Assembly: GCF_003334405.1 (NCBI RefSeq)
Contig: NZ_QOWM01000011.1
DNA length: 64,000 nt
Direction: 5' to 3' (one strand)
From: Escherichia coli
GTDB lineage: Bacteria; Pseudomonadota; Gammaproteobacteria; Enterobacterales; Enterobacteriaceae
Below are positions 2,284 through 64,000 of this stretch, in pieces. How positions within the stretch are numbered: position 1 is the stretch's first letter; every line of letters starts with the position of its first letter. Both the position numbers and the translations under genes were made by a program. The notes beneath the pieces are model-generated. The model had not been told where the DNA came from and made no database searches. It was given only the letters and a program-made list of their open reading frames with translations.

Positions 2284-2694
2284 TTAAAGCAGGTAGTCGC
2301 CAGCAGCTTCTGGCTGGTATTCGAGTTCCAGCACTTCAAGGTGGGTTGCAACGCCGCCCGGAAGTTCCCAGTGAATGGAATCGCCAACGCGCAGCCCCAG
2401 CAGTGCGGCACCTACCGGAGCCATAACGGAAAGCTGAGTATTGCTATCGGTCATTTTTGCCGGATACACCAGCGTGCGCACACGCACTTCGCCATCGCTA
2501 AGATTGCGGAATTTAACCCGGCTGTTCATTGTCACCACGTCGTGTGGCATCTCTTCTGGCGAACACATTTGGGCGCGATCCAACTCTGCGTTTAACGCGT
2601 CGGCGATTGGCAAACCAGCATAGGCGGGTTGCTCCAGCAGAATATCGATGCGTTCGGCATCCAGGTCGTTAATGATGATAGTTGGTCTGGACAT
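2284..2694 (-). CDS. rnk: Regulator of nucleoside diphosphate kinase (GreA/GreB-like)
   Basis: 136-aa ORF recognised as Rnk. Confidence 0.9.
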
Positions 2695-2923
2695 TTTTAC
2701 TCCATGTCGTCGGTGCTGCGAGTGTCGCAGATAAACATACCCAAAAGAAAACCCTCACCGTCAGGCGGCGAGGGTTTAACTCACATGATGATACTGACTG
2801 TTGCTCACTCTTTGAAGTGATTTGCGTCACATTCAGGGAATTCCTCAATGCAGCGCATTATGTATAAATCTTAATCGCCTTGGTTTATGGAAGACGAATT
2901 AGCGTGTTTTGTAAATCAGATGA

Positions 2924-3730
2924 TTAATAACCCGCTTTATCAATCACAAAGGTTTTGCCACAGTTACCTGGGTGAGGTTGTGGCAAGAATGAGTTTGCAG
3001 AAAGCGGAGCGTTGATGGCGTCAGCTTTGATCGAGATCTGAATTTCAGTCAAATACGCAGGGTTACCCTGGCACGTTAGCTTAACTGCTTTCACGTTCTC
3101 TTTTCCCCAGCTTTTGGCAAAGGCGGCGTCAAAGTCACGGCGGCTCACTGTTTTACCGTAATTATCCGCAAGGAATTTTCCGGCTTCGCTCTCTTTAATT
3201 TCTTGATTCAGGCGTACCATCGTACCGAAGTATGCGTCCGGATCAAAACCAAAGCAGGCACCGTGTTTGGCATATTCGTAGCGTTCCAGGCAGGAACGTC
3301 CGCCAGCTCCTGGCATGACTTCACTTAGTTTAGCGGCCGTTTCCAGTGATAATCCGGTTTCCGGCGATGAACACATTCGGCTGGCGCGCGCTTCTGGTAG
3401 ATTCGGGATTGGGCGAGTAGCGCAACCGAAGCGCATCCAGCGGCGTTCATCAACACCACGGGCAGCAACCGATTTAGGCAATCCTGGCCACAGACCATGT
3501 ACGGTCAGAAAATCAGCTTTGTTGGTCGTTTCGGTTTGCAGGCGACATTCATCTCGTTCGTTACGATTTCGATCGTGTTGACTCTGGCAAAATCCGGTTT
3601 GCCAGGAGAGGGCCAGGACATAGCGATCAAAATCGCCATACTGTTTTGCCTGCAACGCTAAGGCGTTGGCAGAAGAGAAGGGAAGCAGAGAAACCGCGAG
3701 CAACGCGGCGTTACGCCAGAATGCTTTCAT
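2924..3730 (-). CDS. rna: Ribonuclease I (RNase T2 family), periplasmic
   Basis: ORF 2924..3748; the start at the second in-frame Met gives the signal peptide MKAFWRNAALLAVSLL... and the remembered 268-aa length. Confidence 0.85.
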   Translation of the reverse strand: MKAFWRNAALLAVSLLPFSSANALALQAKQYGDFDRYVLALSWQTGFCQSQHDRNRNERDECRLQTETTNKADFLTVHGLWPGLPKSVAARGVDERRWMRFGCATRPIPNLPEARASRMCSSPETGLSLETAAKLSEVMPGAGGRSCLERYEYAKHGACFGFDPDAYFGTMVRLNQEIKESEAGKFLADNYGKTVSRRDFDAAFAKSWGKENVKAVKLTCQGNPAYLTEIQISIKADAINAPLSANSFLPQPHPGNCGKTFVIDKAGY

Positions 3731-6765: not shown

Positions 6766-8298
6766 TTATTCCTTCACCTGATGCACAACATCGATCACCG
6801 AGCCATCGCGGTAACGCACAACGGCAACGACGCGGTCTGTGAATTCAATCGGCTGTGGTTCACCGGTCAGCAGACGCGCACGTTCGCGCAGCCACTCAAT
6901 GGAAACCACTTTAATGCCCGCTTCCTGCAGACGTTCTGCCAGTTCCGGACGTGCCGGGTTAACTGCGATACCGTGGTCTGTGACCAGAATATCGACACTG
7001 GAGCCTGGGGTGATGCAGGTCAGTACGTTATCCACCAGAGTCGGAATACGACCGCGTACCAGCGGCGCGACGATGATGGAAAGCGCAGAGGCAATCGCGG
7101 TATCGCAGTGACCACCGGAAGCACCACGCAGTACGCCGTCAGAGCCGGTCAGCACGTTAACGTTGAACTGGGTGTCAATTTCCAGCGCGCTCAGTACCAC
7201 CACGTCGAGACGATCAACCGATGCGCCTTTCGAACCCCAGTTAGCGTACTGGTTGGCGCTGATTTCGATGTGATTGGGGTTACGGGCCAGCGATTGCGCA
7301 GCATGGCTGTCAAAGCTCTGCACATCCAGCAGTTTGCGGATCAGACCTTTTTCGTGCAGGTCAACCATCGTCGCGGTAATACCGCCAAGGGCGAAGTCGG
7401 CGCGAATATCGCGGCTACGCATTTTGTCTTCCAGGAAACGGGTTACCGCCAGCGATGCGCCGCCGGTGCCGGTTTGCATGGAGAAACCTTCTTTGAAGTA
7501 GCCAGAGTTGACAATCACATCCGCAGCGCTACGGGCAATAAGCAGTTCGCGCGGGTTAGTGGTCATACGGGTCGCGCCAGCGCCGATTTTTGCAGCATCG
7601 CCAACGCGGTCAACTTTGACGATCAAATCAACCTGATCTTGCTCAATGCTTGCCGGATTATGCGGATAAGGCAGCAGTTCTTCGGTAAGCATCACGACCT
7701 GTTTTGCGTTGTCGGCATCAACCATTGCATAGCCGAGGGAGCCGCAGCAGGCTTTACCGGTGTAGCCGTTGGCATTACCGAATTCATCACAGGACGGGAC
7801 GCCGAGGAAAGCCACGTCGATATTCAGTTCGCCGCTCTGTACCAGATGCACACGACCGCCGTGAGAGTGGATCTGCACCGGTTCTGCCAGCAGACCACGG
7901 GAGATCTCTTCCGCCAGTGGACCACGCAGGCCGGAGGTATAAATGCGGGTAACCACGCCCTGGCGAATGTGTTCTACCAGCGGCGCATGGCAATCACTCA
8001 GGGAGCTGGACGCCAGGGTCAGGTTTTTAAAGCCCATCTTCGCGATGACGTCCATCACCATATTGACGGTCAGGTCACCGCCACGGAAAGCGTGATGGAA
8101 GGAAACCGTCATGCCGTCCTGTAAACCAGAGCGACGAATCGCTTCTTCCAGGTTGGCGCACAGTTTGCGATCGCGCGCTTTTTCAGCCTGGTAGGTTTGC
8201 TTTGGCGAGTTCTGGAAAGCGGCAAGATCGCATTCAGCGCGACGATTCCAGGCCGCTACCCGTTCTTGTCGTTGAGATTGTTCAATTTTCTGCGTCAT
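6766..8298 (-). CDS. citF: Citrate lyase alpha subunit (citrate CoA-transferase)
   Basis: ORF 6766..8340; the internal start MTQKIEQSQ... gives the remembered 510-aa product. Confidence 0.9.
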   Translation of the reverse strand: MTQKIEQSQRQERVAAWNRRAECDLAAFQNSPKQTYQAEKARDRKLCANLEEAIRRSGLQDGMTVSFHHAFRGGDLTVNMVMDVIAKMGFKNLTLASSSLSDCHAPLVEHIRQGVVTRIYTSGLRGPLAEEISRGLLAEPVQIHSHGGRVHLVQSGELNIDVAFLGVPSCDEFGNANGYTGKACCGSLGYAMVDADNAKQVVMLTEELLPYPHNPASIEQDQVDLIVKVDRVGDAAKIGAGATRMTTNPRELLIARSAADVIVNSGYFKEGFSMQTGTGGASLAVTRFLEDKMRSRDIRADFALGGITATMVDLHEKGLIRKLLDVQSFDSHAAQSLARNPNHIEISANQYANWGSKGASVDRLDVVVLSALEIDTQFNVNVLTGSDGVLRGASGGHCDTAIASALSIIVAPLVRGRIPTLVDNVLTCITPGSSVDILVTDHGIAVNPARPELAERLQEAGIKVVSIEWLRERARLLTGEPQPIEFTDRVVAVVRYRDGSVIDVVHQVKE

Positions 8299-16751: not shown

Positions 16752-17545
16752 GTGGCAATGCTGGTTGCCGCAGGACAGTTTGCTGTTACATCTGTGTGGG
16801 AAAAGAACGCTGAGATTTGTGCCTCGTTGATGGCGCAGGCGGCGGAAAACGACGTATCGCTGTTTGTCCTGCCGGAAGCATTGCTGGCGCGCGATGATCA
16901 TGATGCAGATCTATCGGTTAAATCAGCACAGCTGCTGGAAGGCGAATTCCTCGGACTTTACGGCGAGAAAGTAAACGTAACATGATGACGACAATTCTGA
17001 CGATTCATGTTCCTTCAACGCCGGGGCGCGCATGGAATATGCTGGTGGCACTTCAGGCAGGAAACATCGTCGCCCGTTATGCCAAACTGCATCTCTATGA
17101 TGCATTTGCCATTCAGGAATCACGCCGTGTTGATGCTGGTAATGAAATCGCTCCGTTACTGGAGGTGGAAGGGATGAAGGTCGGTCTGATGACCTGTTAT
17201 GACTTACGCTTTCCAGAGCTGGCGCTGGCACAGGCATTACAGGGAGCTGAAATCCTGGTACTTCCTGCCGCCTGGGTTCGCGGGCCGCTCAAAGAGCATC
17301 ACTGGTCAACGCTGCTTGCCGCTCGTGCGCTGGATACCACCTGTTATATGGTGGCGGCGGGGGAGTGCGGGAACAAAAATATCGGTCAAAGCCGGATTAT
17401 AGATCCCTTTGGCGTCACCATTGCGGCAGCGTCAGAAATGCCTGCACTCATTATGGCGGAAGTGACGCCCGAACGTGTGCGTCAGGTGCGCGCGCAACTG
17501 CCCGTCTTAAACAACCGTCGCTTTGCGCCGCCGCAATTATTATGA
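16752..17545 (+). pseudogene. ybeM: Carbon-nitrogen hydrolase family gene disrupted by a frameshift
   Basis: Two consecutive ORFs in different frames (16752..16985 and 16982..17545) together resemble one CN-hydrolase protein; the frame break is near 16980. Confidence 0.6.
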
Positions 17546-46474: not shown

Positions 46475-46870
46475 ATCCAACTCCTTTATCTTCTGCGTTA
46501 AGAACGCATGGATACCCGTTGTGAGTGTTTGTGTTGTTATCGTCTGCAACTTTATTGTGCAGTGTTGTGCCTGTTAGGTAACATTTAGTTTGGCTAAATG
46601 TAAAGATATTGCTGTTTTATTGTTTGTTTTTGCGAGATGCGCCGCACCATTCCGAAGCAAAATTCTTAAAATGCACTCTTTTAGTGCTACCGCTGGATTA
46701 CTGTGGTGCAACTAGGTTGTACTGATGCTGATTCAGGGTTTGCCTTGTATAACAAAGCAATAGATGTGCCAAAGTTGGATAGGAGAATATTGTTATCCGG
46801 ATAATGCACTGATGCCGCATCCGGTGAGCGTGCCGAAATATGGGATGTATTCCGGCACGATAAGAAGGGA

Positions 46871-52483: not shown

Positions 52484-52628
52484 CGACTTGCTCTTGCGAA
52501 ATAGTAGCCAGGAATGCAGGGCGCATAGTGTAATGCTTTGCTGCCGTTGTGACCAGTATGAGCGTTATCAGCCCTTAGGGGTAAAAATCCTGTAAACTTA
52601 AAGCATATTGCTAACAGGATGATTGACC

Positions 52629-53804
52629 ATGACAAATCAACCAACGGAAATTGCCATTGTCGGCGGAGGAATGGTCGGCGGCGCACTGGCGCTGGGGCTG
52701 GCACAGCACGGATTTGCGGTAACGGTGATCGAGCACGCAGAACCAGCGCCGTTTGTCGCTGATAGCCAACCGGACGTGCGGATCTCGGCGATCAGCGCGG
52801 CTTCGGTATCATTGCTTAAAGGGTTAGGGGTCTGGGATGCAGTACAGGCTATGCGTTGCCATCCTTACCGCAGACTGGAAACGTGGGAGTGGGAAACGGC
52901 GCATGTGGTGTTTGACGCCGCTGAACTTAAGCTACCGCTGCTTGGCTATATGGTGGAAAACACTGTCCTGCAACAGGCGTTGTGGCAGGCGCTGGAAGCG
53001 CATCCGAAAGTAACGTTACGTGTGCCAGGCTCGCTGATTGCGCTGCATCGCCATGATGATCTTCAGGAGCTGGAGCTGAAAGGCGGTGAAGTGATTCGCG
53101 CGAAGCTGGTGATTGGTGCCGACGGCGCAAATTCGCAGGTGCGGCAGATGGCGGGAATTGGCGTTCATGCATGGCAGTATGCGCAGTCGTGCATGTTGAT
53201 TAGCGTCCAGTGCGAGAACGATCCCGGCGACAGCACCTGGCAGCAATTTACTCCGGACGGACCGCGTGCGTTTCTGCCGTTGTTTGATAACTGGGCATCG
53301 CTGGTGTGGTATGACTCTCCGGCGCGTATTCGCCAGTTGCAGAATATGAATATGGCACAGCTCCAGGCGGAAATCGCGAAGCATTTCCCGTCGCGTCTGG
53401 GTTACGTTACACCGCTTGCCGCTGGTGCGTTTCCGCTGACGCGTCGCCATGCGTTGCAGTACGTGCAGCCAGGGCTTGCGCTGGTGGGCGATGCCGCGCA
53501 TACCATCCATCCGCTGGCGGGGCAGGGAGTGAATCTTGGTTATCGTGATGTCGATGCCCTGATTGATGTTCTGGTCAACGCCCGCAGCTACGGCGAAGCG
53601 TGGGCCAGTTATCCTGTCCTCAAGCGTTACCAGATGCGGCGCATGGCGGATAACTTCATTATGCAAAGCGGTATGGATCTGTTTTATGCCGGATTCAGCA
53701 ATAATCTGCCACCACTGCGTTTTATGCGTAATCTCGGGTTAATGGCGGCGGAGCGTGCTGGCGTGTTGAAACGTCAGGCGCTGAAATATGCGTTAGGGTT
53801 GTAG
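52629..53804 (+). CDS. ubiF: FAD-dependent ubiquinone-biosynthesis hydroxylase
   Basis: ORF 52623..53804 (TTG in the track); ATG at 52629 gives MTNQPTEIAIVGGGMVGG with an FAD-binding GxGxxG (391 aa). Confidence 0.9.
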   Translation: MTNQPTEIAIVGGGMVGGALALGLAQHGFAVTVIEHAEPAPFVADSQPDVRISAISAASVSLLKGLGVWDAVQAMRCHPYRRLETWEWETAHVVFDAAELKLPLLGYMVENTVLQQALWQALEAHPKVTLRVPGSLIALHRHDDLQELELKGGEVIRAKLVIGADGANSQVRQMAGIGVHAWQYAQSCMLISVQCENDPGDSTWQQFTPDGPRAFLPLFDNWASLVWYDSPARIRQLQNMNMAQLQAEIAKHFPSRLGYVTPLAAGAFPLTRRHALQYVQPGLALVGDAAHTIHPLAGQGVNLGYRDVDALIDVLVNARSYGEAWASYPVLKRYQMRRMADNFIMQSGMDLFYAGFSNNLPPLRFMRNLGLMAAERAGVLKRQALKYALGL

Positions 53805-53925: not shown

Positions 53926-53953
53926 CAAAAAGCTCGCCGAAGCGAGCTTTTTT
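53926..53953. terminator. Bidirectional rho-independent terminator between ubiF and the tRNA operon
   Basis: aaaaagctcgccgaagcgagctttttt: 7-bp stem, GNRA-like loop, flanking A- and T-runs. Confidence 0.8.
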
Positions 53954-53957
53954 AATG

Positions 53958-54032
53958 TGGCTGGGGTACGAGGATTCGAACCTCGGAATGCCGGAATCAG
54001 AATCCGGTGCCTTACCGCTTGGCGATACCCCA
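53958..54032 (-). tRNA. glnV: tRNA-Gln (anticodon CUG)
   Basis: 75-nt reverse complement matches the tRNA-Gln cloverleaf with anticodon loop TTCTGAT and 3' CCA; could equally be called glnX. Confidence 0.9.
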
Positions 54033-54079
54033 ACAAATTGGTTTTGAATTTGCCGAACATATTCGACACATTCAGAATT

Positions 54080-54156
54080 TGGTGGCTACGACGGGATTCG
54101 AACCTGTGACCCCATCATTATGAGTGATGTGCTCTAACCAACTGAGCTACGTAGCC
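54080..54156 (-). tRNA. metU: tRNA-Met elongator (anticodon CAU)
   Basis: 77-nt reverse complement GGCTACGTAGCTCAGTTGG...CCA with anticodon loop CTCATAA. Confidence 0.9.
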
Positions 54157-54171
54157 AGATTGTTTCTTCGA

Positions 54172-54246
54172 TGGCTGGGGTACCTGGATTCGAACCAGGG
54201 AATGCCGGTATCAAAAACCGGTGCCTTACCGCTTGGCGATACCCCA
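54172..54246 (-). tRNA. glnW: tRNA-Gln (anticodon UUG)
   Basis: 75-nt tRNA-Gln with anticodon loop TTTTGAT; could equally be called glnU. Confidence 0.9.
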
Positions 54247-54269
54247 TCCGTACAACGCTTTCTGGTGAA

Positions 54270-54354
54270 TGGTGCGGGAGGCGAGACTTGAACTCGCACA
54301 CCTTGCGGCGCCAGAACCTAAATCTGGTGCGTCTACCAATTTCGCCACTCCCGC
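54270..54354 (-). tRNA. leuW: tRNA-Leu (anticodon UAG)
   Basis: 85-nt reverse complement GCGGGAGTGGCGAAATTGG...CCA with a long variable arm and anticodon TAG. Confidence 0.9.
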
Positions 54355-54363
54355 AAAAAAAGA

Positions 54364-54440
54364 TGGTGGCTACGACGGGATTCGAACCTGTGACCCCATC
54401 ATTATGAGTGATGTGCTCTAACCAACTGAGCTACGTAGCC
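54364..54440 (-). tRNA. metT: tRNA-Met elongator (anticodon CAU)
   Basis: 77-nt copy of the same tRNA-Met as 54080..54156. Confidence 0.9.
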
Positions 54441-54480
54441 ATCTTTTTTTTCGCGATACCTTATCGGCGTTGCGGGGCGC

Positions 54481-54509
54481 ATTATGCGTATAGAGCCTTG
54501 CAGCGTCAA
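54481..54509 (-). promoter_or_regulatory. Putative sigma70 stable-RNA promoter of the tRNA operon
   Basis: On the minus strand: TTGACG, 17-nt spacer, CATAAT, then the GC-rich discriminator GCGCCCCGC, about 40 nt upstream of the first tRNA. Confidence 0.55.
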
Positions 54510-54819: not shown

Positions 54820-56484
54820 TTACTTATACGCCGACTGGTGAACACCAACCGCGCGACCAGACGGATCGTCCATTTTCTTGAACGCTTCATCCCATTCGAT
54901 CGCTTTAGCGGAAGAACAAGCGACGGAAGGACCGCCCGGCACGCACTCAGCGGCGCTCGGAAGCGGGAATAGTTCTTCAAAGATCTCCCGATACAAGTAC
55001 GCTTCTTTAGAGGTTGGCGTGTTGTACGGGAAGCGGAAGCGGGCAGTTTCCAGTTGCTGATCAGAAACCTGCTGCGCAGCCACTTCTTTCAGGGTGTCGA
55101 TCCAACTGTAACCGACGCCATCGGAGAACTGCTCTTTCTGCCGCCAGGCCACGCTTGCAGGCAGATACGCTTCAAAACATTCACGCAGGATGTGTTTTTC
55201 CATTTTGCCGTTACCGCACATTTTATCCTGTGGGTTAATACGCATCGCCACATCAAGGAATTTTTTGTCGAGGAACGGAACGCGTGCTTCCACGCCCCAG
55301 GCTGACATCGCTTTGTTGGCACGCGCGCAGTCATACATATGCAGGGCCAGCAGTTTACGCACCGTCTCTTCATGCAGTTCTTTGGCATTCGGTGCTTTGT
55401 GGAAGTAAAGATAACCGCCGAACACTTCATCAGAACCTTCACCGGACAGCACCATTTTAATGCCCATCGCCTTGATCTTACGCGACATTAAATACATCGG
55501 TGTTGAAGCGCGAATAGTGGTCACATCATAAGTTTCGATGTGGTAAATCACGTCGCGGATGGCATCCAGACCTTCCTGTACAGTGAAGTGAATTTCGTGA
55601 TGCACCGTGCCCAGATGGTTTGCCACTTCCTGGGCTGCTTTCAGATCCGGTGAACCCGGCAGACCTACAGCAAAGGAGTGTAACTGCGGCCACCAGGCTT
55701 CAGAGCGTTCCTGATCTTCCACGCGACGGGCTGCGTATTTCTTGGTGATAGCGGAAATAATTGAGGAATCCAGACCACCAGAAAGCAGCACACCGTAAGG
55801 CACATCAGACATCAGATGGCTTTTAACTGAATCTTCCAGTGCCTGACGCAGCTCGTTTTTGTCGGTCACGTTATCTTTCACCGCATCGTAGTCGAACCAG
55901 TCGCGATGATAGTAAGAACGGATTTCGCCGTCCTGGCTCCACAAATAGCTCCCCGCCGGGAACTCTTTAATCGTGCGGCAAACTGGCACCAGCGCTTTCA
56001 TTTCTGAGGCCACATACAGCTGACCGTGTTCGTCATACCCCATATACAGTGGGATGATCCCCAGATGGTCGCGACCAATCAGGTAGGCATCTTTTTCGCT
56101 GTCGTACAGTGCAAAGGCAAACATGCCCTGCAAGTCGTCGAGAAATTCCGGCCCTTTTTCCTGATACAGCGCGAGGATCACTTCACAGTCAGACCCGGTC
56201 TGGAACTGGTAACGATCGCCATATTCGGCGCGCAATGCCTGGTGGTTGTAGATTTCACCGTTTACCGCCAGTACGTGGGTTTTTTGTTGGTTGTAGAGAG
56301 GTTGCGCCCCCGCGTTAACGTCAACAATTGACAGACGTTCGTGGGCGAGAATGGCGTTATCGCTGGCATAAATACCGGACCAGTCCGGGCCACGATGACG
56401 CATCAGGCGTGACAGCTCGAGGGCTTTCTTACGCAGCTCAACTGCGTCTGTTTTGATATCGAATACGCCAAAAATTGAACACAT
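54820..56484 (-). CDS. asnB: Asparagine synthetase B (glutamine-hydrolysing)
   Basis: ORF 54820..56565; start at MCSIFGVFDI (554 aa) with N-terminal Cys nucleophile and PP-loop SGGLDSS. Confidence 0.95.
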   Translation of the reverse strand: MCSIFGVFDIKTDAVELRKKALELSRLMRHRGPDWSGIYASDNAILAHERLSIVDVNAGAQPLYNQQKTHVLAVNGEIYNHQALRAEYGDRYQFQTGSDCEVILALYQEKGPEFLDDLQGMFAFALYDSEKDAYLIGRDHLGIIPLYMGYDEHGQLYVASEMKALVPVCRTIKEFPAGSYLWSQDGEIRSYYHRDWFDYDAVKDNVTDKNELRQALEDSVKSHLMSDVPYGVLLSGGLDSSIISAITKKYAARRVEDQERSEAWWPQLHSFAVGLPGSPDLKAAQEVANHLGTVHHEIHFTVQEGLDAIRDVIYHIETYDVTTIRASTPMYLMSRKIKAMGIKMVLSGEGSDEVFGGYLYFHKAPNAKELHEETVRKLLALHMYDCARANKAMSAWGVEARVPFLDKKFLDVAMRINPQDKMCGNGKMEKHILRECFEAYLPASVAWRQKEQFSDGVGYSWIDTLKEVAAQQVSDQQLETARFRFPYNTPTSKEAYLYREIFEELFPLPSAAECVPGGPSVACSSAKAIEWDEAFKKMDDPSGRAVGVHQSAYK

Positions 56485-56730
56485 AACCTTCTCCGTTAAC
56501 CTGGTATTTGTTGCTTGTTGTGTTTGCTTGTTTAAAAAAATGCCGCAAAGCAGCACTGTGCGCAAGCGATTTGGCGGTGAAAAAATAAAAAACGTAATGG
56601 TGATTGTCGATTGGTGAAAAAAGGTCTGGTGTGAGGATATATTTATTGATGAATCGATAATTTTTAGCGGGTTTTATTGAATGTTTATATTTTACGGGGG
56701 CCAAATTGCTGACAAAGTGCGATTTGTTCA

Positions 56731-58909: not shown

Positions 58910-60918
<2,009 letters not shown>

Positions 60919-63399: not shown

Positions 63400-64000
63400 A
63401 TGAGTGAGGCAGAAGCCCGCCCGACTAACTTTATCCGTCAGATCATCGATGAAGATCTGGCCAGTGGTAAGCACACCACAGTACACACCCGTTTCCCGCC
63501 GGAGCCGAATGGCTATCTGCATATTGGCCATGCGAAATCTATCTGCCTGAACTTCGGGATCGCCCAGGACTATAAAGGCCAGTGCAACCTGCGTTTCGAC
63601 GACACTAACCCGGTAAAAGAAGATATCGAGTATGTTGAGTCGATCAAAAACGACGTAGAGTGGTTAGGTTTTCACTGGTCTGGTAACGTCCGTTACTCCT
63701 CCGATTATTTTGATCAGCTCCACGCCTATGCGATCGAACTGATCAATAAAGGCCTGGCGTACGTTGATGAACTGACGCCGGAACAGATCCGCGAATACCG
63801 CGGCACCCTGACGCAACCGGGTAAAAACAGCCCGTACCGCGACCGCAGCGTTGAAGAGAACCTGGCGCTGTTCGAAAAAATGCGTGCCGGTGGTTTTGAA
63901 GAAGGTAAAGCCTGCCTGCGTGCGAAAATCGACATGGCTTCACCGTTTATCGTGATGCGCGATCCGGTGCTGTACCGTATTAAATTTGCTGAACACCACC
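63400..64000 (+). CDS. glnS: Glutaminyl-tRNA synthetase, 5' part (runs off the window)
   Basis: Open frame from ATG 63400 (GAGGAA Shine-Dalgarno upstream) translating [20 protein letters not shown]... with class I HIGH motif (LHIGHAKS); no stop before the window end. Confidence 0.9.

What the first reader, a model, noticed from the sequence alone, without database searches (positions are those of the whole stretch)
53958..54441. tRNA operon holds five genes where I remember seven in reference K-12
I find tRNA-Gln(CUG), tRNA-Met, tRNA-Gln(UUG), tRNA-Leu(UAG), tRNA-Met on the minus strand with spacers of about 47, 15, 23 and 9 nt. From memory the K-12 MG1655 operon is glnX-glnV-metU-glnW-glnU-leuW-metT, with two tandem copies of each Gln isoacceptor. 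The spacers here fit loss of one copy of each tandem pair by homologous recombination, so the source is either not MG1655 or carries a contracted array, halving tRNA-Gln gene dosage.
Basis: partly seen in the sequence, partly recalled or inferred. Interest (0 to 1): 0.55.

Follow-up and report, generated by a model that had tools for sequence, protein, structure and literature searches.

The report
Five-gene metT tRNA operon variant
This E. coli window holds the well-known metT tRNA operon with one copy of each glutamine tRNA instead of K-12's two, a rare and already-recorded layout that is either a true small deletion between identical repeats or, somewhat more likely, a genome-assembly collapse.

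Summary
ARAGORN finds exactly five minus-strand tRNA genes at 53958-54440: Met, Leu(UAG), Gln(UUG), Met, Gln(CUG). Over 1.1 kb the window equals MG1655 except for two exact one-unit gaps (109 and 112 bp) and one spacer SNP. Promoter and terminator are intact. The source is not MG1655 (17 SNPs in 64 kb, no IS5D).

Among 5,426 complete E. coli genomes, 13 show the same five-gene form. The glnU-glnW junction is missing in 84 genomes and the glnV-glnX junction in 159.

The sequence alone cannot separate a real deletion from assembly collapse. Collapse occurs at this locus: at least 8 "complete" genomes lack any tRNA-Gln(UUG), which cannot be real. Double losses are about 9-fold over-represented. 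The window's nearest five-gene relatives (ECCTRSRTH03, CEA106S) are also contracted at unrelated tRNA arrays although they are not clonal.

Real contractions also exist. FDAARGOS_1077 is five-gene but intact elsewhere, and BW25113 and J53 consistently have two Val genes against MG1655's three.

My estimate is collapse about 0.6 and real deletion about 0.37. Either way it is ordinary and of low interest.

The parts
54481..54509 (-). metT operon promoter (-35 TTGACG, 17-nt spacer, -10 CATAAT), followed by a GC-rich discriminator
   Evidence: Consensus scan, 10 of 12 matches. The sequence is identical to the MG1655 upstream region.
54364..54440 (-). tRNA-Met(CAU) elongator, equivalent to metT
   Evidence: ARAGORN. 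100% identical to K-12 metT and metU.
54270..54354 (-). tRNA-Leu(UAG), equivalent to leuW
   Evidence: ARAGORN. 100% identical to K-12 leuW.
54170..54246 (-). Single tRNA-Gln(UUG) gene (54172-54246) plus 2 nt. This is the 77-nt stretch that is duplicated as glnU and glnW in K-12. The 109-bp missing unit (75-nt gene + 34-nt spacer) maps somewhere inside it, and the breakpoint cannot be placed.
   Evidence: Alignment to MG1655. Repeat length and period. The upstream spacer matches leuW-glnU and the downstream spacer matches glnW-metU.
54080..54156 (-). tRNA-Met(CAU) elongator, equivalent to metU
   Evidence: ARAGORN. Identical to K-12.
54067..54067 (-). Only base substitution relative to MG1655 within the operon, in the metU-glnV spacer (G on the transcribed strand; K-12 has A)
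   Evidence: Alignment. CFS3292, which has seven genes, carries the same allele (100% blocks).
53958..54034 (-). Single tRNA-Gln(CUG) gene (53958-54032) plus 2 nt. This is the 77-nt stretch that is duplicated as glnV and glnX in K-12. The 112-bp missing unit (75-nt gene + 37-nt spacer) maps inside it.
   Evidence: Alignment to MG1655. Repeat length and period.
53927..53952 (-). Rho-independent terminator of the operon (11-bp stem, GC-rich, T-run)
   Evidence: Terminator scan. Identical to K-12.
52623..53804 (+). ubiF, the conserved flanking gene
   Evidence: ORF list. Annotation of matching genomes.
54820..56565 (-). asnB, the conserved flanking gene. These are mechanical ORF limits; the annotated gene is 554 aa.
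   Evidence: ORF list. Annotation of matching genomes.

Best explanation
The sequence is the canonical E. coli metT (supB-E) tRNA operon between ubiF and asnB, with its own promoter and terminator. It lacks exactly one 109-bp unit (one Gln-UUG gene plus the glnU-glnW spacer) and one 112-bp unit (one Gln-CUG gene plus the glnV-glnX spacer). The most likely origin of the two gaps is collapse of the two 77-nt perfect tandem repeats when the source genome was assembled. In an assembly graph each pair forms a small self-loop, and dropping both loops gives exactly this five-gene string. On that reading the living strain most likely has the usual seven genes. Shown: the structure, the exact unit-sized gaps, the rarity of the form, and that collapse occurs at this locus in public 'complete' genomes. 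Inferred: that it happened in this particular assembly.
For: (1) Both gaps coincide exactly with 77-nt perfect repeats of period 109 and 112, with no scar. (2) Collapse at this locus is demonstrable. MC1061 (a K-12 derivative) is deposited with only Met+Gln(CUG) and no other copy in the record. ST648, WB61, GF47, AVS0947, IPCEC48, HS13-1 and IAL7250 likewise lack tRNA-Gln(UUG). The operon is experimentally essential, and glnUW(UUG) and leuW are unique decoders (PMC11480407, PMC6265465). (3) Loss of both Gln junctions in one genome is seen in at least 23 genomes against 2.5 expected if the two losses were independent (84 and 159 of 5,426; P = 6e-17). (4) The same assemblies are contracted at unrelated tandem arrays. 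ECCTRSRTH03 (4 SNPs in 30 kb from the window) has glyVXY x2 and metZWV x1. CEA106S has glyVXY x2. MC1061 has gly x1. ME8067, AS19, N18-04097 and TUM2805 have fMet x1. List overlaps were 6 and 5 against 0.66 expected. ECCTRSRTH03 and CEA106S are 0.59% diverged at the gly locus, so their shared state is not inherited. (5) There is a batch effect: one project (GF, accessions CP172127-CP172217) contributes 5-, 6-, 2- and 11-gene forms, and the AVS and IPCEC projects also contain impossible arrays. (6) Genomes with flanks identical to the window have seven genes (CFS3292). Nine of ten contigs sharing the window's NagB allele also have seven.
Against: No read-level evidence exists for this window, and its source assembly could not be traced. 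Its other tRNA arrays and its sequencing technology are therefore unknown. Real contractions of tandem tRNA arrays do occur. BW25113 and two independent J53 assemblies all have two Val genes where MG1655 has three. FDAARGOS_1077 carries the same five-gene operon yet keeps three tandem Gly and three tandem fMet genes and resolves IS elements. STK39-3-E also keeps three Gly genes. Two ~100-kb draft contigs resolve all seven genes, so collapse is not the rule. The five-gene set keeps one gene of every tRNA species and is biologically viable.
Confidence: 0.6

Rival explanations
1. The strain really carries a contracted operon. Two separate deletions, each removing one repeat period, arose by RecA-dependent unequal crossing-over between sister chromosomes or by RecA-independent replication slippage between the 77-nt direct repeats (glnU/glnW and glnV/glnX). 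All tRNA-Gln genes of E. coli lie in this operon, so gene dosage of both Gln isoacceptors is halved (4 to 2). The transcript stoichiometry changes from Met2:Leu1:Gln(UUG)2:Gln(CUG)2 to 2:1:1:1. The expected result is a mild cost at fast growth and near-neutrality at slow growth.
For: The gaps are exactly one repeat period and lie between perfect 77-nt repeats, the classic substrate. All native spacers, the promoter and the terminator are retained, so processing sites are intact. Recombination between repeated genes of this very operon has been seen experimentally: metT x metU on a plasmid deleted leuW-glnU-glnW (PMC5400242). Heritable contraction of another tandem array is consistent across many labs (valU array x2 in BW25113 and J53). 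FDAARGOS_1077 and STK39-3-E have the five-gene operon but intact gly arrays, and in FDAARGOS_1077 the fMet array is intact too. A six-gene form is shared by one lineage across three sequencing projects (AVS*, TUM13066, 23AR0151). The locus also shows expansions, with up to 3-4 junctions per genome.
Against: It needs two independent events, and double losses are about 9-fold more frequent than independence predicts. That excess is more simply explained by a per-assembly cause. The window's closest five-gene relatives show multi-array contraction without being clonal. 97-98.5% of genomes keep each pair, so selection evidently maintains the duplicates.
Confidence: 0.37
2. Five genes is the ancestral or lineage-typical state, and K-12's seven arose by duplication. 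On this reading nothing was lost here.
For: None beyond the fact that tandem duplicates must have arisen by duplication at some point.
Against: The tandem junctions are present in 5,342 and 5,267 of 5,426 E. coli genomes across all identity bands. Salmonella has the same seven-gene operon (PMC5400242). Genomes with flanks identical to the window have seven genes. The four five-gene carriers examined are 0.6-0.9% apart at the gly locus, and the thirteen span several local sequence variants, so they are scattered and do not form a clade.
Confidence: 0.01
3. A deliberately engineered or reduced-genome laboratory strain in which redundant tRNA genes were removed.
For: IS5D is absent, and the window is very close to K-12 (99.975% identity).
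Against: There are 17 SNPs relative to MG1655, which match common natural alleles. There are no scars, cassettes or FRT/lox sites at the junctions. The flanks are identical to many wild isolates.
Confidence: 0.02

Closest known systems
[quoted passage not shown]
   Same: Same chromosomal site (ubiF-asnB), same promoter and terminator, same gene order. All five genes and all retained spacers are identical to MG1655 except one spacer base.
   Different: One copy of each Gln isoacceptor instead of two. The operon is 221 bp shorter.
Five-gene alleles already deposited: ECCTRSRTH03, FDAARGOS_1077, CEA106S, STK39-3-E (100% identical over 683-1501 bp) and nine others
   Same: Identical arrangement, and for these four an identical sequence across the operon.
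   Different: None is the window's source: there are 4 to 91 SNPs in the flanking 22-30 kb. They are independent of one another, 0.6-0.9% diverged at a distant locus.
Tandem tRNA array contraction in K-12 sublines (valU-valX-valY to two Val genes in BW25113 and J53)
   Same: Loss of exactly one unit from an array of identical ~76-nt tRNA genes with short spacers. It is heritable and tolerated.
   Different: A different operon and a single event. It is confirmed by many independent assemblies, which the window's state is not.
Assembly-collapsed tRNA arrays in 'complete' genomes (e.g. MC1061 NZ_CP195014.1: Met+Gln(CUG) only)
   Same: Segments bounded by identical tRNA-gene repeats are missing without a scar, at the same locus.
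   Different: Those forms lack essential tRNAs and so are demonstrably artefacts. The window's five-gene form keeps every tRNA species and could be real.

Membership tests
metT (supB-E) tRNA operon of E. coli/Salmonella | Located between ubiF and asnB and transcribed towards ubiF | tested here: met
   ORFs and annotation of matching genomes
metT (supB-E) tRNA operon of E. coli/Salmonella | Gene order Met-Leu(UAG)-Gln(UUG)-Met-Gln(CUG), with gene sequences identical to K-12 | tested here: met
metT (supB-E) tRNA operon of E. coli/Salmonella | Single upstream sigma-70 promoter and a rho-independent terminator after the last Gln gene | tested here: met
   identical to MG1655. Function is inferred from identity and was not assayed.
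metT (supB-E) tRNA operon of E. coli/Salmonella | Seven genes, with tandem glnU-glnW and glnV-glnX pairs | tested here: not met
   Only five genes; both tandem junction spacers are absent
Deletion by unequal homologous recombination or slippage between direct repeats | The missing segment equals exactly one repeat period, bounded by perfect repeats in the parental form, with no novel junction sequence | tested here: met
   109 and 112 bp equal the periods of 77-nt perfect repeats
Deletion by unequal homologous recombination or slippage between direct repeats | The shortened allele is present in the organism's DNA (reads or PCR) and inherited by descendants | not testable with these tools
   No reads are available. 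The source genome could not be traced.
Assembly collapse of tandem repeats | The missing segment coincides with perfect repeats at or above the usual k-mer length. Analogous collapsed forms occur at the same locus in other assemblies. | tested here: met
   77-78-nt repeats. Impossible 2- and 3-gene arrays occur in at least 8 complete genomes.
Assembly collapse of tandem repeats | Other tandem tRNA arrays of the same assembly are also contracted | tested here: inconclusive
   Not testable for the window's own source. Among look-alikes it is met in ECCTRSRTH03 and CEA106S and not met in FDAARGOS_1077 and STK39-3-E.
Assembly collapse of tandem repeats | Two-fold read depth over the retained copy, or reads containing the missing spacers | not testable with these tools
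   No read data

The most novel reading that the evidence does not exclude
The contraction is real and part of a recurrent, possibly selected, genome-wide trimming of tandem tRNA arrays in some natural E. coli. ECCTRSRTH03, for example, would have five fewer tRNA genes across three arrays. This would tune translational capacity downward in slow-growth niches. The cross-locus co-occurrence seen here would then be biology and not an assembly artefact.
Probability: 0.07. Interest if true: 0.45.

Novelty: already known. Interest (0 to 1): 0.15.

Why it matters
The biological importance is small. If real, it is a rare and probably slightly deleterious copy-number allele that halves tRNA-Gln gene dosage. 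That kind of change is long known for tandem tRNA genes, and this allele is already present in 13 public complete genomes. The practical point is about data quality. Tandem tRNA arrays are miscounted in a few per cent of "complete" E. coli assemblies, including at least 8 that lack an essential tRNA. tRNA gene-copy comparisons across strains should therefore be checked against reads before being interpreted.

Tried and rejected
(1) I argued that strain J53 gave discordant valU copy numbers between labs, which would have been a within-strain proof of collapse. Checking showed both J53 assemblies and BW25113 have Val x2. I withdrew the argument, and it now counts as evidence for real heritable contraction.

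(2) The collapsed alaWX probe was uninformative, because the search tool joins the two pieces of a normal two-copy array. The valU probe's count of matches at 80% coverage or more also includes normal arrays, so I did not use it as a contraction count.

(3) Tracing the window's source failed. No RefSeq complete genome matches both the flanks and the array. A 120-nt single-copy Gln(UUG) signature gave 0 hits in GTDB representative genomes and in JGI metagenome contigs. The window's NagB G265D allele turned out to be common, and all ten contigs returned had 7 or 8 genes.

(4) I considered shared ancestry as the explanation for the multi-array contraction in ECCTRSRTH03 and CEA106S. I rejected it because they are 0.59% diverged at the gly locus.

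(5) I rejected the idea that five genes is ancestral.

(6) The eLife 2023 study on translational redundancy (PMC9981150) contains no data on Gln tRNA genes. The fitness effect is therefore inferred only by analogy.

Full report
**1. Observation**

ARAGORN on the whole window returns exactly five tRNA genes, all on the minus strand:
- Gln(CUG) 53958-54032
- Met(CAU) 54080-54156
- Gln(UUG) 54172-54246
- Leu(UAG) 54270-54354
- Met(CAU) 54364-54440

Read in the direction of transcription the order is Met-Leu-Gln(UUG)-Met-Gln(CUG).

A sigma-70-type promoter lies upstream at 54509-54481 (TTGACG, 17 nt, CATAAT). An 11-bp-stem terminator with a T-run lies just after the last gene at 53952-53927. The flanking genes are ubiF and asnB.

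**2.

The MG1655 record annotates glnX, glnV, metU, glnW, glnU, leuW and metT at 696430-697133, so the recollection of seven genes is correct.

I aligned 1.1 kb of the window to MG1655. The two are identical except for three things:
- a 109-bp gap, equal to one 75-nt Gln(UUG) gene plus the 34-nt glnU-glnW spacer
- a 112-bp gap, equal to one 75-nt Gln(CUG) gene plus the 37-nt glnV-glnX spacer
- one substitution in the metU-glnV spacer (window 54067)

In K-12, glnU/glnW are identical over 77 nt with a period of 109, and glnV/glnX over 77 nt with a period of 112. metT/metU are identical over 78 nt with a period of 393. The gaps are therefore exactly one repeat period each. The breakpoints cannot be placed within the repeats, and no junction sequence is new.

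Over the full 64 kb the window is 99.975% identical to MG1655, with 16 mismatches in the aligned blocks plus the spacer SNP. It lacks the IS5D copy that MG1655 has between gltI and lnt. The source is a close relative but not MG1655.

**3. How common the form is**

The collection holds 5,426 complete RefSeq E. coli genomes.
- The glnU-glnW junction is present in 5,342 and absent in 84.
- The glnV-glnX junction is present in 5,267 and absent in 159.
- Some genomes have up to 3 or 4 junctions, which means expansions.
- The five-gene form, as one co-linear piece, occurs in 13 genomes, or 0.24%.

Those 13 are ECCTRSRTH03, FDAARGOS_1077, CEA106S and STK39-3-E (all 100% identical across the operon), plus TUM9757, GF66.1, 2824, IPCEC31, GF43, GF60, AVS0543, AVS0790 and AVS0967.

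Other forms also exist:
- Six-gene forms occur, including the lab strains MG1655p, ME8067, AS19 and the LY180 line.
- A four-gene form, Met-Leu-Gln(UUG)-Gln(CUG), occurs in N18-04097.
- An 11-gene form, [Met-Leu-Gln(UUG)]x3-Met-Gln(CUG), occurs in GF8, GF161 and GF54.
- Two- and three-gene forms occur as well.

Genomes whose 24-kb flank is identical to the window have seven genes, for example CFS3292. Nine of ten contigs carrying the window's NagB allele have seven genes, including two ~100-kb draft contigs. Salmonella has the same seven-gene operon (PMC5400242). Seven is therefore the ancestral and strongly prevailing state.

**4. Real deletion or assembly collapse?**

Both processes give the same string, so the window alone cannot decide. 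I looked for indirect evidence on each side.

*Evidence that collapse happens at this locus*

The deposited "complete" genome of MC1061, a K-12 derivative, has only Met+Gln(CUG) at this site. It has no other match to the operon anywhere in the record. ST648 has Met-Leu-Gln(CUG). WB61, GF47, AVS0947, IPCEC48, HS13-1 and IAL7250 are of the same kinds.

These assemblies contain no tRNA-Gln(UUG). The operon is experimentally essential, and glnUW(UUG) and leuW(UAG) are the only decoders of their codons (PMC11480407; PMC6265465). These arrays cannot be real. In an assembly graph each tandem pair is a self-loop, and dropping both self-loops yields exactly the five-gene form.

*Evidence for a per-assembly cause*

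If the two junction losses were independent, 2.5 genomes should lack both. At least 23 do (P = 6e-17).

I built single-copy "collapsed" probes of two unrelated K-12 tandem arrays. They matched 123 genomes for glyVXY and 226 for metZWV. The same assemblies recur in these lists:
- ECCTRSRTH03 has gly x2 and fMet x1.
- CEA106S has gly x2.
- MC1061 has gly x1.
- ME8067, AS19, N18-04097 and TUM2805 have fMet x1.
- SL112, GF124.3, GF31 and CEA212U have gly x2.

The overlaps between the displayed lists were 6 and 5 against 0.66 expected.

ECCTRSRTH03 and CEA106S are the window's nearest five-gene relatives, at 4 SNPs in 30 kb and 6 SNPs in 22 kb. They are 0.59% diverged at the gly locus. Their shared multi-array contraction is therefore not inherited from a recent common ancestor.

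Variant arrays are also concentrated in a few projects. One project (GF, accessions CP172127-CP172217) contributes 5-, 6-, 2- and 11-gene forms.

*Evidence that real contractions also occur*

BW25113, in dozens of assemblies with different start coordinates, and two independent J53 assemblies all have two Val genes in the valU operon, where MG1655 has three. I had expected J53 to be discordant between labs. It was not, and I withdrew that argument.

FDAARGOS_1077 has the five-gene operon yet keeps three identical tandem Gly genes and three tandem fMet genes, and it resolves IS1 and IS100. STK39-3-E also keeps three Gly genes. Those arrays have the same repeat geometry as the Gln pairs, so in these assemblies the contraction is specific to this locus, as a true deletion would be.

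Spontaneous recombination between metT and metU, deleting leuW-glnU-glnW, has been observed on a plasmid (PMC5400242). A six-gene form is shared by one lineage across three sequencing projects.

*Weighing the two*

Of the 13 deposited five-gene genomes, about 2-3 are expected from independent real events. Nine come either from assemblies with multi-array contraction or from projects that also produced impossible arrays. One, FDAARGOS_1077, looks clean at both arrays tested.

The window's own source could not be traced. It is not a RefSeq complete E. coli genome, and the GTDB-representative and JGI scans found nothing. Its sequencing technology and its other arrays are therefore unknown.

I put assembly collapse at about 0.6 and a real double deletion at about 0.37.

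**5. How it would work if real**

Each deletion would arise by unequal crossing-over or replication slippage between 77-nt perfect direct repeats. Either route removes exactly one period. The promoter, the terminator and all native spacers remain, so transcription and RNase P processing sites are unchanged (inference from identity).

All four tRNA-Gln genes of E. coli sit in this one operon. Gene dosage of both Gln isoacceptors would be halved, and the per-transcript ratio of Gln to Met tRNAs would fall from 2:1 to 1:1. One gene of every species remains, so the strain would be viable.

The fact that 97-98.5% of genomes keep each pair suggests a mild cost. No direct fitness data for these genes were found.

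**6. Comparison with what is known, and verdict**

This is the metT (supB-E) operon. It meets every defining feature of that operon except the seven-gene count. The variant is already present in public genomes.

Both candidate mechanisms are textbook: unequal recombination between tandem tRNA genes, and collapse of short tandem repeats in assembly. Nothing here is new in kind.

Interest is low (0.15). The one useful by-product is a caution that tandem tRNA arrays are miscounted in a few per cent of "complete" E. coli assemblies.

Noticed in passing
L003 (NZ_CP195014.1 MC1061) 1959-2157; also ST648 L006 1601-1869: At least 8 RefSeq 'complete' E. coli genomes have metT operons with no tRNA-Gln(UUG), and most also lack tRNA-Leu(UAG). 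No other copy exists in the record. This is incompatible with viability, so they are assembly errors in deposited genomes.
   Followed up: partly
L004 (NZ_CP172212.1 GF8) 2601-3649: An 11-gene version of the operon: the unit Met-Leu-Gln(UUG) occurs three times, then Met-Gln(CUG), with no tandem Gln pairs. It is shared by GF8, GF161 and GF54. It is either a real expansion through the 78-nt metT/metU repeats or a loop-count error by the assembler.
   Followed up: partly
L007 (NZ_CP047277.1 N18-04097) 1601-1978: A four-gene form, Met-Leu-Gln(UUG)-Gln(CUG). It is as expected from recombination between a Gln(UUG) gene and a Gln(CUG) gene, which share 29 nt at the 5' end. The same assembly has a single-copy metZWV array.
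   Followed up: partly
window 46574-46578: The window lacks the IS5D (insH3) copy that MG1655 has between gltI and lnt. The 4-bp overlap of the alignment blocks fits an unoccupied target site.
   Followed up: partly
L024, L025, L026 (J53 x2, BW25113) 451-728: The K-12 derivatives BW25113 and J53 consistently have two Val genes plus lysV in the valU operon, where MG1655 has three Val genes. This is a heritable tandem-array difference between K-12 sublines.
   Followed up: yes
L018 24304-24723 and L021 32701-33120: In FDAARGOS_1077 and STK39-3-E the glyVXY array has a 157-nt spacer between the first and second genes, against 36 nt in K-12. The extra sequence is not a degraded tRNA copy.
   Followed up: partly
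L034 (GCA_027278895.1 JAPWWQ010000001.1) 17108-17258: An eight-gene operon in which a 74-nt Gln(CUG) gene is followed only 2 nt later by another Gln(CUG) gene. This abutting arrangement looks like a consensus or assembly glitch.
   Followed up: no
window 60118-60918 (nagB, minus strand; SNP at 60125): The window's NagB has D at residue 265 where MG1655, ECCTRSRTH03, FDAARGOS_1077 and STK39-3-E have G. The D allele is widespread in public assemblies.
   Followed up: yes
window ~63400-64000 (+): glnS (glutaminyl-tRNA synthetase) begins about 9 kb from the operon that encodes every tRNA-Gln gene, and is cut by the window end. This is the normal K-12 arrangement.
   Followed up: no
L010 (NZ_CP166722.1 CEA106S) 6812-8263: CEA106S has an IS1A insertion with loss of the ybeQ-hscC segment that is present in the window at about 34.9-42.0 kb.
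   Followed up: no
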